NCBI GenBank assembly: GCA_963836285.1
Contig: CAWIIN010000001.1
Location: 482,080 to 546,079 of the forward strand
From: an uncultured Acidobacteriota bacterium
GTDB lineage: Bacteria; Acidobacteriota; Thermoanaerobaculia; UBA5066
DNA: 64,000 nt
Direction: 5' to 3'
Positions 39,145-45,248 of the stretch are shown here, in pieces. A program made the position numbers and the translations under genes. Below the pieces are notes generated by a model. The model was not told the origin of the DNA and did no database searches. It saw nothing but the letters and a program-made list of their open reading frames with translations. Numbering within the stretch: position 1 is the stretch's first letter; every line of letters begins with the position of its first letter.

Positions 39145-40157
39145 CGGGCCGCGACGCCGGGCTCGACGACGCCTATCGTGCCGTCACGGACCTGCTCCGG
39201 AACGGCCGGCGCTTTCTCCTCACGGGGCATCGCAACCCCGACGGCGACGCCCTCGGCTCCGCGCTCGGACTCGCGCAGGCCCTCGAAGCGGCCGGCAAGG
39301 AGGCGCGCGTCGTCATGCGAGACGCATGGTCGTCCGCCTACGACGGCATGCCCGGCATCACGCGCGTCGAGGTCCTCGACGCGCTCCCCGCCGACTGGCC
39401 CGCCGCGTACGACGCCATCCTCGTCATGGAGTGCCCGGAGTCCGAAAGAACGGGCTGGCCGAACCTGTTTGCCGGACGCGTCGTCAACGTCGACCACCAC
39501 CCGGGCAACGGTCGGTACGGCGCGCTGAACCTCGTCGACCTGCCCGCGGCCGCCGTCGGCGAGATCGTCGCCGACCTCCTCGACCTTCTCCAGTGGCCGC
39601 TCACCGCCGACGTCGCGACGAACCTCTGGGTCTCGCTCGTCTCGGACACGGGCTCGTTCCGCTACTCGAACACGACGCCGAAGGCTCTCGCTCTCGGCGC
39701 CCGTCTCGTCGCCGCGGGAGCCCGCCCGGGACCCGTCAACGAGTTCCTCTTCGAGGCGGCGCCCCTCTCCTCGCTCAGGCTCGAGGCGCTCGTCCTCGGG
39801 ACTCTCGCGCTCCACGCGGGCGGCGCCGTCGCGACGGTCGAGCTTCCCCGCCGCTTCCTCACCGAGAGCGGCTCGCGCGAATCCGACACGGAGGGTCTCG
39901 TCAACCGCGCGCGCGGCATCCACGGCGTGAAGGCCGCGCTCCTCCTGCGCGAAGGCGAGGAGGGCGAGATCCGGTGCTCGCTGAGGAGCAAGGGAACGGT
40001 GGACGTGCGGAGCGTCGCGGCCCGGCACGGCGGCGGCGGGCACCGCAACGCCGCGGGCTGCCGGATCCCGGGCTCGCTCGACTCCGCGAAGGCGGCGCTC
40101 GTCGCCGAGATCGCGGCCGCCGTCTCGGCCGATGCCGGCGCCGCGGAGGCTCCTTGA
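39141..40157 (+). CDS. DHH-family phosphoesterase (NrnA-like oligoribonuclease/pAp phosphatase)
   Basis: 338 aa with the motifs GHRNPDGDALGS, DHHPGN and GGGHRNAAG (DHHA1). An ATGA overlap joins it to rbfA. Confidence 0.8.
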   Translation: MTGRDAGLDDAYRAVTDLLRNGRRFLLTGHRNPDGDALGSALGLAQALEAAGKEARVVMRDAWSSAYDGMPGITRVEVLDALPADWPAAYDAILVMECPESERTGWPNLFAGRVVNVDHHPGNGRYGALNLVDLPAAAVGEIVADLLDLLQWPLTADVATNLWVSLVSDTGSFRYSNTTPKALALGARLVAAGARPGPVNEFLFEAAPLSSLRLEALVLGTLALHAGGAVATVELPRRFLTESGSRESDTEGLVNRARGIHGVKAALLLREGEEGEIRCSLRSKGTVDVRSVAARHGGGGHRNAAGCRIPGSLDSAKAALVAEIAAAVSADAGAAEAP

Positions 40158-41080
40158 AGGCACGGCTCGCGGGGCCCGACGGCCTTCTCCTCGTGGACAA
40201 GCCACCCCGGCTCACGTCGCACGACGTCGTAGACGTCGCCCGCCGCCTCCTCGGGACGCGCCGCGTCGGCCACACGGGGACCCTCGACCCCGCCGCGACC
40301 GGCCTGCTCGTCCTCTGCGTCGGCCGGGCGGGACGGCTGCAGTCCTTCCTGACGGGCTGGGACAAGACCTACGAGGGCACGATCGCGTTCGGCGTCGCGA
40401 CGGACACGTACGACGCCGTCGGGGAGCCGGTCGGCGAGCCGCACCCGTCGCCCGCGCCGTCGCGCGAGCGGCTCGAAGAAGCCTGCCTCGCATTCACCGG
40501 CGAGATCCTGCAGGTCCCGCCTCCGTTCTCGGCGAAGAAGATCGCCGGCCGGAGGTTCTACGAGCTCGCGCGCTCCGGCGAGCCCGTCCCGGACACGCCG
40601 AAGAAAGTCACCGTGCGGTCCCTCGAGATCCTCGGGCTCGACGGCGCCACCGCCCGCTTCCGGGTCTCGTGCACCTCCGGGACCTACATCCGCTCGCTCG
40701 CGCACGACATCGGGCGCGCGCTCGGCGTCGGCGCGCACCTCGGGGGCCTCCGCCGGACGTCGATCGGCCCGTTCCTCCTCGACGAGGCGTGCACGCTGCC
40801 CGCTCTCGAGGCCCTTGCTCCCGCGCAACGGCTCGCAAAGCCGTCCTGGCGCTCGCTTTCGGAGATCCCGCTTCCGTTCCCGGCCGTCGCGCTCGCGCCG
40901 GCCGAGGCCACGAGGGTCCGGAGCGGCCACGGCGTGCCCGTTCGCGTGCCGGAAGGGGCGGCGGGGGCGTCGATGGTGCGACTCACCGCCGACGGAGAGC
41001 TCCTCGCGCTCGGCGTCCTCGAGCCCCTCGGCCGCGGCGCCCTCGCGCTCGCGAAGCCGAAGGTCGTCCTCGCAGGATAA
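40154..41080 (+). CDS. truB: tRNA pseudouridine(55) synthase TruB
   Basis: A TTG at 40154 overlaps the upstream stop (TTGA). The motifs are GLLLVDKPPRLTSHDVV, GHTGTLDPAATGLL and the PUA-like C-terminus. Confidence 0.9.
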   Translation: MKARLAGPDGLLLVDKPPRLTSHDVVDVARRLLGTRRVGHTGTLDPAATGLLVLCVGRAGRLQSFLTGWDKTYEGTIAFGVATDTYDAVGEPVGEPHPSPAPSRERLEEACLAFTGEILQVPPPFSAKKIAGRRFYELARSGEPVPDTPKKVTVRSLEILGLDGATARFRVSCTSGTYIRSLAHDIGRALGVGAHLGGLRRTSIGPFLLDEACTLPALEALAPAQRLAKPSWRSLSEIPLPFPAVALAPAEATRVRSGHGVPVRVPEGAAGASMVRLTADGELLALGVLEPLGRGALALAKPKVVLAG

Positions 41081-41128
41081 GACGGGCTTGATCGGCGGTT
41101 GGGATCTTTCGGGTCATTCCCAGATGAC

Positions 41129-41134
41129 TATAAT
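41129..41134 (+). promoter_or_regulatory. candidate -10 box TATAAT, 6 nt upstream of the antitoxin ATG (leaderless mRNA predicted)
   Basis: A perfect TATAAT hexamer. Its spacing puts the transcription start at or next to the ATG at 41141. Confidence 0.4.
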
Positions 41135-41140
41135 GGTCTC

Positions 41141-41431
41141 ATGAGGAAAGCCTCCGTCTCGGAGCTCAAGTCGCACCTGTCGGCCCACCTCGCCCGCGTC
41201 CGGCGCGGGGAAGAAGTCCTCGTGACCGACCGAGGGCGTCCCGTCGCCCGCCTCATCGGCGTTCAAGGTACCCAGGCCCTGGGGGACGCGCTTTCGGCCC
41301 TCGCGGCCGACGGGCTCATCCGACCTCCGGAACGGGGTCTCCCCCCGGCCCTCCTCCGCCCGTCTCCTGCGCGCGATCCGAAGGGCCGTGTCCTCGCCGC
41401 GGTGCTCGAGGAGCGGCGGAGCGGCCGTTGA
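41141..41431 (+). CDS. type II antitoxin, Phd/YefM family
   Basis: MRKASVSELKSHLSAHLARVRRGEEVLVTDRGRPVARL.., the canonical Phd/YefM N-terminus. Its stop overlaps the toxin start. Confidence 0.8.
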   Translation: MRKASVSELKSHLSAHLARVRRGEEVLVTDRGRPVARLIGVQGTQALGDALSALAADGLIRPPERGLPPALLRPSPARDPKGRVLAAVLEERRSGR

Positions 41432-41862
41432 GGTTCTGGGACTCCTCTGCCCTGGTGCCGCTGCTGACGGAAGAGCGTTCGAGCGCGGCGATTCGGGCGC
41501 TGCTGCGCGAAGACCGCGCGCTCTGCATCTGGTGGGCGGCGCGAACGGAGTGTCTTTCGGGCCTCCAGCGCCGCCGCCGCGAGGGCGCGCTCGGTCTTCG
41601 CGCTTTCGACGCTGCCCGTCGCCGGCTTTTCGACCTCGAGGCCGCCGCCACGGTCGTCCAGCCTTCCGAAGCACTTCGGAACCGGGCCGATCGCCTGCTC
41701 GCCGTCCATGGCCTGCGCGCCGCCGACGCGTTCCACGTCGCAGCCGCTCTCGTCCTCGCGGGAGACCGGCCGGAGGGCCTTGCATTCGTCACGCGGGACG
41801 GGCGCCAGGGCGTCGCCGCCGCACGCGAAGGGTTTCAAGTCCTGCCGGGCGAAGAAGTTTGA
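41428..41862 (+). CDS. vapC: type II toxin, PIN-domain VapC family
   Basis: 144 aa with an MRFWDSSALVPLL.. N-terminus (PIN acidic residue). It also carries ..LRAADAFHVAAAL.. and the ..FVTRD.. motif. Confidence 0.8.
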   Translation: MRFWDSSALVPLLTEERSSAAIRALLREDRALCIWWAARTECLSGLQRRRREGALGLRAFDAARRRLFDLEAAATVVQPSEALRNRADRLLAVHGLRAADAFHVAAALVLAGDRPEGLAFVTRDGRQGVAAAREGFQVLPGEEV

Positions 41863-41864
41863 CC

Positions 41865-42023
41865 GGCGGCCACGGCGTGCCCGTGAGCGTCCCCGAGGGC
41901 GCGGCCGGCGGCGCGATGGTGCGCCTGACCGAGGGCGGCGAGCTCCTCGCGCTCGGCTTCCTCGAGCCCCTGGGCCGCGGCGCTCTCGCCCTCGCACGCC
42001 CGAAAATCGTTCTCGCGGGTTGA
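41865..42023 (+). pseudogene. displaced duplicate of the truB 3' end (52 codons plus stop, no start)
   Basis: Aligned by eye to 40922..41080 it is about 80% identical at nucleotide level. The peptide GHGVPVSVPEGAAGGAMVRLTEGGELLALGFLEPLGRGALALARPKIVLAG matches the real TruB tail at 44 of 51 residues. Confidence 0.7.
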
Positions 42024-42623
42024 ACTCCCACGCGCGTGCCGGCCGTCGCGATCAACACGCGTGAAAATATGAGACCTTCAGCCATGGGGATGTTGGCGCT
42101 CACTTCGGAGCGCGATAGAGGGAATGAACATGTCTTGCGCCGGATCGTCAGCAATCGCGCGCACTTTTGCCGCCGCGCTTGTTGTTGCGATCGAAACGTA
42201 GGCGGCCAGATGCAAAACTACGATCGCGTCCGATCGGCCAGGTCTTTCAAGAGGATCGAGTCCTCAGAGCTTCATACAGCAGGAGGGCTCCTGCAGAACC
42301 CGGGGTTGCCGTGACGACTGAGAAAGCCGGCCGTGAGGAGAGCGACCATCCAACCGAAAAGGGCCGGAAGGTCCGCCTGGATCGTGATGAACCGGAGGCC
42401 AGCGGCCCGTACGGCCGGCAAAGGCTCTCGAGTCCTTCCAGTCGAAGGGTCGCACCGCTGGGACTTCGACGAAAAAAGGACCGTGGCACCGAGGTGGAGA
42501 GGTGACCCGCAGGCCGGGACTGCGCCAAAGCCTTCCCCTTCATCACTTGCCGTCCGATTGACCGCCTTCCGCGTTCCCGGTAGACTTCGCCGGTTGAAAA
42601 ATTAGAGAAGGAAAGTAAAGACA

Positions 42624-42893
42624 TTGGCCCAGCTCACCACGAAGAAGGCGGAAACGATCACGACGTACCGGCGCCACGACAGCGACACGGGCTCGCCCGA
42701 GGTCCAGGTGGCTCTCCTCTCCAAGCGCATCTCCGAGCTGACCGAGCACTTCAAGGCGCACGCCAAGGACCACCATTCCCGGAGGGGCCTCCTCCAGATG
42801 GTCGGCCGGCGCCGCCGGCTGCTCGATTACGTGAAGAAGCGCGACGCGGACCGGTATCGCGCTCTGATCGAGCGCCTCGGACTGCGCAAGTAG
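42624..42893 (+). CDS. rpsO: 30S ribosomal protein S15
   Basis: 89 aa with a TTG start preceded by GAGAAGGAAAG. The motif [35 protein letters not shown] is present. Confidence 0.95.
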
Positions 42894-42927
42894 TCCTTTT
42901 CTTCATCGGCAATCGTCCGGCGGCACC

Positions 42928-42955
42928 TCCCGGCCCGCGTTCCGCGGCCCCGGGG
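42928..42955 (+). promoter_or_regulatory. interrupted GC-rich hairpin in the rpsO-pnp spacer (possible rpsO terminator or pnp leader processing site)
   Basis: Hand-folded pairs are CCCGG/CCGGG and CCGCG-ttc-CGCGG. No T-tract follows the hairpin. Confidence 0.3.
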
Positions 42956-43004
42956 AGACGTGCCTGCCGGCCGGAGAGCCGGGCCAGCGAAAGGAACGAA
43001 GCCC

Positions 43005-45247
<2,243 letters not shown>

Positions 45248-45248
<1 letters not shown>

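What the first reader, a model, noticed from the sequence alone, without database searches (positions are those of the whole stretch)
40922..42023. Phd/VapC toxin-antitoxin mini-cassette bracketed by a diverged duplication of the truB 3' end
The last ~159 nt of truB (40922..41080) recur at 41865..42023, immediately after the vapC stop. Identity is about 80% by eye. The length is the same, the frame is still open, the stop position is the same, and the peptide is 44/51 identical.

Between the two copies lie only a TATAAT-driven, apparently leaderless phd-vapC pair.

This is the footprint expected when an integrating element carries its own copy of the target gene's 3' end and displaces the resident one. 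Here the cargo is a ~0.9-kb TA module in the middle of the conserved truB-rpsO-pnp block, and no integrase is visible.

Many of the differences between the copies do not change the amino acid. This suggests the second copy came from a different truB allele rather than decaying in place.
Basis: seen in the sequence. Interest (0 to 1): 0.65.

Follow-up and report, generated by a model that had tools for sequence, protein, structure and literature searches.

The report
Recombination scar beside toxin-antitoxin cassette
The last 52 codons of the tRNA-modifying gene truB really do occur twice around a small toxin-antitoxin pair, and the best reading is a scar left when two different versions of this gene-swapping hotspot were joined out of register; this is a tidy but ordinary example of how small genes move between bacteria without their own integration enzyme.

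Summary
Window 40922-41080 (the truB 3' end, copy A) recurs at 41865-42023 (copy B), 943 nt downstream. The copies share 127/159 nt and 44/52 aa, and other assemblies carry the same structure.

The copies are not a decayed in-place duplication. dN/dS is 0.17, and at most differing sites each copy carries a state seen in related species.

The integrating-element idea is not supported.
- Two related contigs carry the homologous phd-vapC cassette in the same truB-rpsO spacer with no duplicate. There the vapC stop lies inside the rpsO -35 box (GTTTGACCGG).
- The window keeps that box at the vapC end. Copy B follows, then a decayed MntA-HepT toxin-antitoxin remnant, then a second, functional rpsO promoter.
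- The nearest tyrosine recombinase gene is about 52 kb away.

The locus is therefore a chimera of two alleles of one insertion hotspot. One allele runs truB-phd-vapC-(-35). The other runs truB-hepT/mntA-promoter-rpsO. They are joined out of register by one illegitimate junction and one homologous exchange.

Which copy is resident is unresolved. Relatives carry five other cargoes in this spacer, so I score interest as low to moderate.

The parts
40154..41080 (+). truB, intact, 308 aa, with a TTGA overlap on the upstream DHH-family gene
   Evidence: Pfam TruB_N 3.2e-48 and TruB_C_2 5.4e-12. It is the same length as in the relatives.
40922..41080 (+). Copy A: the last 52 codons plus stop of the functional truB. 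The stop is TAA, found in no relative.
   Evidence: All 4 states private to copy A lie at third codon positions.
41081..41123 (+). 43-nt linker between the truB stop and the start of cassette homology
   Evidence: Homology to the cassettes of L224 and L225 begins at 41124-41126. I did not examine this linker any further.
41124..41140 (+). Cassette promoter and probable operator (ATGACTATAATGGTCTC), with TATAAT at 41129-41134, 6 nt before the phd ATG (leaderless)
   Evidence: The motif is conserved in acidobacterial homologues. Delta-proteobacterial homologues have a Shine-Dalgarno leader instead.
41141..41431 (+). phd (Phd/YefM-type antitoxin, 96 aa)
   Evidence: Pfam PF02604, E 1.6e-11. A homologous gene sits in the same position beside the related vapC genes in most loci.
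41428..41862 (+). vapC (PIN-domain toxin, 144 aa), with a 4-nt overlap on phd. It has a 3-4-residue C-terminal extension that reads into flanking DNA.
   Evidence: Pfam PF01850, E 1.2e-8. D5, E41, D100 and D124 are invariant in alignment A1. The extension and stop lie in GTTTGACCGG, as in L224 and L225.
41857..41866 (+). Relic rpsO -35 box (GTTTGACCGG) holding the vapC stop. It marks the end of the 'Q' allele piece, and the illegitimate junction follows it.
   Evidence: In L224 and L225 the same 10-mer lies 17 nt before the rpsO -10 box TAGACT. In relatives without inserts the -35 box follows the truB stop directly.
41865..42023 (+). Copy B: a truB 3' fragment (52 codons plus TGA) cut off from any truB body. 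It is a pseudogene fragment from another allele.
   Evidence: Five private states are spread over codon positions 1, 1, 2, 3 and 3. GC3 is 0.90, as in functional truB genes.
42024..42556 (.). Lower-GC non-coding stretch contiguous with copy B: the rest of the 'P' allele piece
   Evidence: GC is 0.57-0.65. No Rfam match. The RNA fold is no better than shuffles, z 0.51.
42224..42406 (-). Decayed MntA (nucleotidyltransferase) - HepT toxin-antitoxin remnant. The MntA C-terminal piece is at 42302-42406 and the HepT N-terminal piece at 42224-42265.
   Evidence: tblastn with intact pairs from G011, G013 and G009 gives 66-69% aa and E 4e-11 for MntA, and E 0.003 for HepT. The intact proteins hit NTP_transf_2 and HepT-like in Pfam.
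42558..42586 (+). Functional rpsO promoter, TTGACC-17 nt-TAGACT. Window 42524-42608 matches species G011 at 89.5% over 86 nt, and the stretch from the -35 box through the -10 box is identical to G011, although G011 belongs to the other subclade.
42624..42893 (+). rpsO (ribosomal protein S15)
   Evidence: Pfam PF00312, E 1.5e-36.
43005..45248 (+). pnp (polynucleotide phosphorylase)
   Evidence: Gene call and Pfam families on L226. The rpsO+pnp 5' tree places the genome with G022, G010 and G021.

Best explanation
The truB-rpsO spacer of this Thermoanaerobaculia genus is an insertion hotspot. In the plain layout the rpsO -35 box follows the truB stop within a few bases.

The window is a chimera of two alleles of that hotspot.
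- Allele Q is truB - 43 nt - phd - vapC - rpsO(-35). The vapC stop lies inside the -35 box, as in the related contigs L224 and L225.
- Allele P is truB - (hepT, mntA on the other strand, already decaying) - promoter - rpsO.

DNA of one allele entered a cell carrying the other. The two were joined out of register. The end of Q's GTTTGACCGG was ligated to codon 256/257 of P's truB with at most 1-3 nt of microhomology. The other end was resolved by ordinary homologous exchange in the conserved flank.

Topologically this is the same as a 943-nt circle (truB codon 257 to the -35 box) entering by a single crossover in the truB 3' end.

The result keeps one intact truB, the intact TA pair and one intact rpsO promoter. 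It leaves a 52-codon truB fragment as a scar.

Shown: the anatomy, the two-allele origin of the copies, the relic -35 box, the TA remnant and the hotspot.

Inferred: the recombination route, and that no dedicated enzyme was involved. Which allele was resident is not resolved.
For: (1) The repeat is real and present in other assemblies.

(2) The copies come from two alleles.
- dS is 0.65, dN is 0.107 and dN/dS is 0.17.
- If copy B had been neutral since an in-place duplication, about 30 non-synonymous differences are expected against 11 seen (P about 1e-6; about 0.02 at the lower bound of dS).
- Each copy is closer to some relative than to the other copy. Copy A is 86.6% identical to G024, copy B is 87.3% identical to G020, and A to B is 80%.
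- Holding A and B as sisters costs 8.4 lnL units, AU p 0.056.
- Copy B's private states are only 5 of 156 and are spread evenly over codon positions. Copy A's 4 private states are all at third positions.

(3) L224 and L225 hold the homologous cassette (75% nt over 743 nt; VapC 74-75% aa) in the same spacer, without a duplicate. Their vapC stop sits in GTTTGACCGG, 17 nt before TAGACT. More distant VapC homologues end at VLP plus 0-3 residues, so the longer extension in the truB-locus group plausibly reads into flank.

(4) The window has that 10-mer at 41857-41866 and a second -35 box at 42558, with TTGACCG on both sides of the roughly 700-nt piece.

(5) That piece is copy B plus an MntA-HepT remnant plus a G011-like promoter.

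(6) The spacer is a hotspot.
- It is 72-90 nt in most species.
- G011 holds an RHH-PemK/MazF pair.
- G015 and G019 hold a fasciclin gene.
- G001, G002 and G020 hold an approximately 700-aa membrane protein gene.
- L224 and L225 hold a META/YscW lipoprotein gene.

(7) The nearest Phage_integrase-family gene is about 52 kb away.

(8) The same cassette family shows similar scars elsewhere. L050 has two fragments of a kinase 5' end. L100 has a partial tRNA-Ala copy. Flanking direct repeats occur in 9/124 loci against 8/423 at shifted control positions, Fisher p 0.006.
Against: - No genome with an intact P allele (truB-hepT-mntA-rpsO) was found in 63 family genomes, so P is inferred only from the window.
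- The illegitimate joint shows no convincing microhomology. A CCGG match needs a 2-nt deletion.
- The 159-nt trees are nearly unresolved once L224 and L225 are added, so no donor lineage can be named.
- rpsO+pnp and the truB 5' part do not reveal a clear imported tract.
- L224 and L225 could instead derive from a window-like layout by deletion between the two TTGACCG repeats.
- Nothing is known about competence or transfer routes in this uncultured group.
- A lost integrase cannot be strictly excluded.
Confidence: 0.6

Rival explanations
1. Site-specific integration. An element with an integrase and an attP site containing a truB 3' end integrated into truB, supplied copy A and displaced the native copy B. 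All of the element except phd-vapC has since been deleted, the TA pair surviving because its loss is toxic.
For: A partial duplicate of the target gene's 3' end bracketing foreign DNA is the classic footprint. The copies come from different alleles. Copy A has a unique TAA stop while copy B has the genus-typical TGA. In L100 the same cassette family lies between a partial and an intact tRNA-Ala gene.
Against: There is no integrase within about 52 kb. Only 43 nt plus the TA pair lie between the copies. The right end of the 'element' is an rpsO -35 box shared with L224 and L225, where the cassette sits in the spacer with no duplicate. The element would therefore itself be a chunk of a truB-rpsO locus. 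The longest identical runs between the copies are 17-18 nt, with no defined core. None of more than 100 homologous cassette loci lies beside a truB fragment.
Confidence: 0.12
2. In-place tandem duplication of truB 3' end plus cassette, followed by deletion and divergence. Copy B would simply be a decayed copy of copy A.
For: The copies have the same length and register, and direct repeats can arise by replication slippage or unequal sister exchange. The AU test does not quite reject A+B as sisters (p 0.056).
Against: dN/dS of 0.17 is far below the roughly 0.5 expected. At 18 of 31 differing coding sites copy B, not copy A, carries the relatives' majority state, and GC3 of copy B is undiminished. 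Copy B is followed by an MntA-HepT remnant, not by a second cassette.
Confidence: 0.07
3. The structure is a metagenome-assembly chimera of two co-occurring strains' alleles.
For: The genome is a metagenome-assembled one (3 contigs, 92% complete). The two halves do look like two alleles.
Against: A Logan contig (100% over 2089 nt) and an ENA contig (99.9%) with different ends contain both copies and both junctions. The junction shares no long k-mer that could mislead an assembler.
Confidence: 0.03

Closest known systems
Homology-facilitated illegitimate recombination (one homologous anchor plus an illegitimate join), as described for naturally transformable bacteria (my own knowledge: de Vries and Wackernagel 2002; the term is used in PMC6382021 and PMC8116780, listed)
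   Same: Foreign DNA is added next to a conserved gene with no dedicated recombinase. One end lies in homology and the other is a join with little or no homology.
   Different: The textbook outcome replaces or deletes recipient DNA. Here the join is out of register and duplicates 159 nt. The process is inferred from a scar and was not observed. Microhomology at the joint is at most 1-3 nt.
Integration hotspots between core genes, where cargo is swapped through flanking homology (my own knowledge: Oliveira, Touchon and Rocha 2017; flexible islands in Alteromonas, PMC4898812, listed)
   Same: One spacer between conserved genes (truB and rpsO) carries at least six different cargoes in one genus, mostly without mobility genes.
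   Different: The scale is very small (0.8-2.2 kb), most of the cargo is toxin-antitoxin pairs, and a promoter element (the rpsO -35 box) serves as the boundary.
Genomic islands at tRNA or gene 3' ends with attL/attR partial duplicates
   Same: A partial duplicate of the target gene's 3' end brackets foreign DNA, and the gene stays intact.
   Different: There is no integrase and no identical core. The inserted unit is itself a segment of the same locus from another allele.
Phd/YefM-VapC type II toxin-antitoxin modules
   Same: An antitoxin gene with a Phd/YefM domain overlaps a PIN-domain toxin gene by 4 nt, the acidic PIN residues are conserved, and a palindrome spans the -10 box.
   Different: Nothing unusual in the module itself apart from the leaderless start and the C-terminal extension that reads into the rpsO -35 box.

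Membership tests
Type II toxin-antitoxin, Phd/YefM-VapC | Antitoxin with a Phd/YefM DNA-binding domain | tested here: met
   PF02604, E 1.6e-11, 44.2 bits against a cut-off of 29.8.
Type II toxin-antitoxin, Phd/YefM-VapC | PIN-domain toxin with conserved acidic residues | tested here: met
   PF01850, E 1.2e-8. D5, E41, D100 and D124 are invariant in 7 homologues.
Type II toxin-antitoxin, Phd/YefM-VapC | Two-gene operon with the antitoxin first and overlapping or coupled genes | tested here: met
   phd at 41141-41431 and vapC at 41428-41862 overlap by 4 nt. The pair is conserved in most homologous loci.
Type II toxin-antitoxin, Phd/YefM-VapC | Toxicity neutralised by the antitoxin; RNase activity | not testable with these tools
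   Needs expression in a laboratory strain.
Site-specific integrative element at a gene 3' end | Integrase or recombinase gene in or beside the element | tested here: not met
   The nearest PF00589 match is at G000:C1:576135, about 52 kb from the locus. The flanks are core genes.
Site-specific integrative element at a gene 3' end | Partial duplicate of the target gene end flanking the insert | tested here: met
Site-specific integrative element at a gene 3' end | The same element found at the same target in other genomes, with an element-borne copy | tested here: not met
   L224 and L225 have the cassette in the spacer without a duplicate. No homologous cassette in about 180 other loci lies beside a truB fragment.
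Homology-facilitated illegitimate recombination, or out-of-register allele exchange | The two sides of the junction derive from different alleles of the same locus | tested here: met
   Relic -35 box at the vapC end plus a second complete promoter. The copies diverged under coding constraint.
Homology-facilitated illegitimate recombination, or out-of-register allele exchange | Short microhomology at the illegitimate joint | tested here: inconclusive
   CCGG occurs on both sides but needs a 2-nt deletion. In register only 1 nt is shared.
Homology-facilitated illegitimate recombination, or out-of-register allele exchange | An identifiable imported tract on the homologous side | tested here: inconclusive
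   The trees of the truB 5' part and of rpsO+pnp do not resolve a donor. Only the promoter stretch is G011-like.
MntA-HepT (nucleotidyltransferase-HEPN) toxin-antitoxin remnant | Sequence similarity to both partners, in the right order and on the right strand | tested here: met
   MntA C-terminus E 4e-11 and HepT N-terminus E 0.003, adjacent on the minus strand. The intact reference proteins hit PF01909 and PF01934. Both genes are truncated and cannot be functional.

The most novel reading that the evidence does not exclude
Small toxin-antitoxin cassettes of this family may spread, or resist replacement, in a characteristic way. Because losing the pair is toxic, incoming alleles of a hotspot might only establish by additive, out-of-register joins. 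Alternatively the cassette may travel as a mini-circle carrying a fragment of the neighbouring gene as its homology arm. Either route would leave partial duplicates of whatever gene lies next door: truB here, a kinase 5' end in L050, tRNA-Ala in L100. That would make TA pairs self-propagating without any recombinase, and would make their flanking scars a readable record of failed replacements.
Probability: 0.12. Interest if true: 0.65.

Novelty: new member of a known kind. Interest (0 to 1): 0.33.

Why it matters
It gives a base-level example of how integrase-free islets between core genes are built. A 75-nt spacer, in which a promoter box abuts a stop codon, has taken up at least six different cargoes in one genus. 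The truB fragment preserves the exact out-of-register join between two of those alleles.

It also corrects the tempting reading of such a footprint as a site-specific element. It explains the neighbouring 'mystery' 600 nt as a dead second toxin-antitoxin pair. It hints, weakly, that this cassette family is flanked by such scars more often than chance.

None of this changes what is known about TA systems or recombination in kind.

Tried and rejected
- Rfam on 40800-43100 gave no match. The RNA fold of 42024-42560 was no better than shuffles.
- I looked for the META lipoprotein gene of L224 and L225 in the 600-nt stretch and found none.
- I looked for near-identical cassettes. The genome contigs and metagenome-contig scans gave at most 68% and 55% aa identity. 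Only the protein search found the 74-75% relatives.
- I tried to name the resident copy by trees and AU tests. Copy A groups with G021 and G024 (97/96) without L224 and L225, but the tree collapses once they are added. The position of the truB 5' part is unresolved.
- I tested a donor tract running into rpsO-pnp. That region groups with G022, G010 and G021, so no foreign signal is seen.
- Public runs gave only two tiny contigs covering 42343-42558, so there was no read-level test of excision.
- A possible 11-nt repeat TTGAYCGGCGG at both cassette ends (41090-41100 and 41858-41868) is, by my rough estimate, within chance.
- The literature searches found TA pairs fenced by direct repeats (PMC7935541) but no description of this truB case.
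Full report
**Observation**

The claimed repeat exists. The repeat finder reports 40923-41076 and 41866-42019 as a 154-nt ungapped direct repeat at 81% identity, 943 nt apart. blastn of the two cassette flanks gives E 2e-40.

Read as codons, 40922-41080 and 41865-42023 share 127/159 nt and 44/52 residues. Both frames are open and both stop at the same position. The 32 differences fall 6/5/21 on codon positions 1/2/3.

- truB at 40154-41080 hits TruB_N and TruB_C_2.
- phd at 41141-41431 hits PhdYeFM_antitox.
- vapC at 41428-41862 hits PIN.
- rpsO is at 42624-42893.

An ENA contig (99.9% identical) and a Logan contig (100% over 2089 nt, spanning both copies) show the same structure. I therefore do not think it is an assembly artefact.

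**The organism and its relatives**

Record titles of hits in the same order name Thermoanaerobaculia, in the Acidobacteriota.

In 40 relatives, 24 of them in the same genus, every truB is single. Only this genome has a second fragment.

The normal truB-rpsO spacer is 72-90 nt. The rpsO -35 box (TTGAC) follows the truB TGA within a few bases, or within about 20-25 nt in the closer clade. A -10 box TAGACT lies 17 nt further on.

The spacer is nevertheless an insertion hotspot.
- G011 holds an RHH antitoxin plus a PemK/MazF toxin.
- G015 and G019 hold a fasciclin-domain gene.
- G001, G002 and G020 hold a 2.2-kb insert encoding a membrane protein of about 700 aa.

**Two alleles, not decay in place**

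Between the copies dS is 0.65, dN is 0.107 and dN/dS is 0.17.

Suppose copy B had been a neutral pseudogene ever since an in-place duplication. Then dN/dS should be about (1+w)/2, near 0.5, and about 30 non-synonymous differences would be expected. Eleven are seen. P is about 1e-6 at the point estimate of dS and about 0.02 at its lower confidence bound.

Each copy is closer to some relative's truB than to the other copy. Copy A is 86.6% identical to G024, copy B is 87.3% identical to G020, and A to B is 80%.

At the 31 differing coding sites copy B carries the relatives' majority state 18 times and copy A 12 times. Copy B has only five states seen in no relative, at codon positions 1, 1, 2, 3 and 3. 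That looks like roughly 3% of neutral decay after it was cut off. Copy A has four private states, all at third positions, as expected for a gene under selection. GC3 is 0.88 in copy A and 0.90 in copy B.

Which copy is the incomer does not resolve.
- Without L224 and L225, copy A groups with G021 and G024 (97/96). Holding A and B as sisters costs 8.4 lnL units, AU p 0.056.
- With L224 and L225 added, the 159-nt tree is a polytomy.
- The truB 5' part and rpsO+pnp give no clear foreign signal.
- Copy A ends in TAA, unique among all relatives. Copy B ends in the usual TGA.

**What the cassette's relatives show**

The closest VapC proteins (74-75% aa, also 144 aa long) came from the large protein search. 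Their contigs L224 and L225 are from relatives whose rbfA-to-truB region is about 81% identical to the window.

Both carry the layout truB - META/YscW lipoprotein gene (opposite strand) - phd - vapC - rpsO, with no truB fragment.

Cassette homology to the window runs from 41124/41126 to 41866. It starts just before the TATAAT box and ends exactly at the junction with copy B.

In L224 and L225 the vapC stop lies inside GTTTGACCGG, and this 10-mer sits 17 nt before TAGACT. It is the rpsO -35 box. More distant VapC homologues end at 'VLP' plus 0-3 residues. The longer tail and stop of the truB-locus group therefore plausibly read into flanking promoter DNA.

The window keeps GTTTGACCGG at 41857-41866, yet no -10 box follows it. 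Copy B follows instead. The working rpsO promoter (TTGACC-17-TAGACT, 42558-42586) lies 700 nt further on.

**What follows copy B**

The 'empty' 42024-42556 stretch has lower GC, no Rfam match and no special fold.

Its minus strand carries two gene fragments. One covers the C-terminal third of an MntA-type nucleotidyltransferase (42302-42406; 66-69% aa; E 4e-11). The other covers the first residues of a HepT RNase (42224-42265; E 0.003). They lie in the order found in intact pairs elsewhere in G011, G013 and G009.

It is therefore a dead second toxin-antitoxin pair.

Window 42524-42608 matches G011 at 89.5% over 86 nt, and the stretch from the -35 box through the -10 box is identical to G011. 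G011 belongs to the other subclade, with rpsO only 90% identical. The rpsO leader and gene, by contrast, match the window's own clade. The locus is a fine-scale mosaic.

**Explanation**

The 943-nt unit from copy A to GTTTGACCGG is one contiguous piece of an allele 'Q': truB - phd - vapC - (-35).

The stretch from copy B to the promoter is one contiguous piece of an allele 'P': truB - hepT/mntA - promoter - rpsO.

They are joined out of register at 41866/41867, which puts Q's -35 box against codon 256/257 of P's truB. Microhomology at the joint is weak. A CCGG match would need a 2-nt deletion, and in register only one base is shared.

One illegitimate join plus one homologous exchange in the conserved flanks produces this structure. 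So does a 943-nt circle entering by a single crossover in the truB 3' end, which is topologically equivalent. It needs no integrase.

The nearest tyrosine-recombinase gene is about 52 kb away. I put about 0.6 on this reading. The anatomy is shown and the route is inferred.

**Rivals**

- A decayed integrase-bearing element at the truB 3' end (0.12). It is weakened by the missing integrase, by the relic -35 box at the 'element' end, and by the duplicate-free cassettes in L224 and L225.
- In-place duplication and decay (0.07). It is contradicted by dN/dS and by the shared states.
- Assembly chimera (0.03). It is contradicted by the other assemblies.
- A caveat on polarity. L224 and L225 could have lost copy B by deletion between the two TTGACCG repeats. 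That would not change the two-allele conclusion.

**Beyond this locus**

Homologous cassettes occur in more than 559 genome loci across many phyla, and none is next to truB. Several, however, show analogous scars.
- In L050 the cassette lies beside a Ser/Thr kinase 5' end and is followed by two further diverged fragments of that 5' end. The orthologous locus L049 has the cassette but no fragments.
- In L100 the cassette lies between a partial and an intact tRNA-Ala gene, with no integrase in view.

Flanking direct repeats of at least 35 nt occur at 9 of 124 loci against 8 of 423 shifted control positions, Fisher p 0.006. This is a modest enrichment that I did not pursue further.

**Comparison with what is known, and verdict**

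The module is an ordinary Phd/VapC pair. The footprint resembles an attL/attR duplicate but fails the integrase and shared-element tests. The process resembles homology-facilitated illegitimate recombination and cargo swapping at core-gene hotspots.

I class it as a new member of a known kind. Interest is about 0.33.

Noticed in passing
window 42024-42623: The lower-GC 'non-coding' 600 nt flagged separately by the first stage contains a decayed MntA (nucleotidyltransferase)-HepT toxin-antitoxin remnant on the minus strand (42224-42406). It also holds the rpsO promoter (42558-42586).
   Followed up: yes
L042 (G011:C1, truB-rpsO spacer, 805 nt): A different toxin-antitoxin pair (RHH/CopG antitoxin plus PemK/MazF toxin) occupies the same spacer in another species of the genus. 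Its rpsO promoter stretch, from the -35 box through the -10 box, is identical to the window's.
   Followed up: partly
L050 1056-2225 (G051:C183), compared with L049/L105: A homologous phd-vapC cassette sits beside the 5' end of a Ser/Thr kinase gene. It is followed by two further diverged fragments of that kinase 5' end (about 1976-2117 and 2141-2225). The orthologous locus in L049 has the cassette but no fragments.
   Followed up: partly
L100 2264-3661 (Thermoanaerobaculia MAG DASYLL010000261): A homologous cassette lies between a 90-nt partial copy (90% identical) and the intact tRNA-Ala(GGC) gene. No integrase gene is seen within 3 kb. This is a TA-only islet at a tRNA gene.
   Followed up: partly
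L071, L096, L101, L169 (cassette flanks): Non-coding direct repeats of 35-122 nt flank homologous cassettes in unrelated phyla. Over 124 loci such repeats are about four times more frequent than at shifted control positions (p 0.006). Their nature (att-like sites, repeat elements) was not studied.
   Followed up: partly
window 41124-41143 and homologues: The -10 box lies inside a palindrome (ATGACTATAATAGTCAT in the cleanest copies). Acidobacterial copies start translation 6-7 nt after TATAAT (leaderless). Delta-proteobacterial copies of the same cassette carry a Shine-Dalgarno leader.
   Followed up: partly
L039-L041 (G001, G002, G020 spacers, 2230 nt): An open frame of about 700 aa for a membrane protein with no Pfam match fills the truB-rpsO spacer on the opposite strand in three species. 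The three spacers are 90-92% identical to one another.
   Followed up: no
G006:C20 and G007:C2: truB is split into 2-4 overlapping frame pieces in these two genomes. This is probably indel errors in the assemblies and not real pseudogenes.
   Followed up: no
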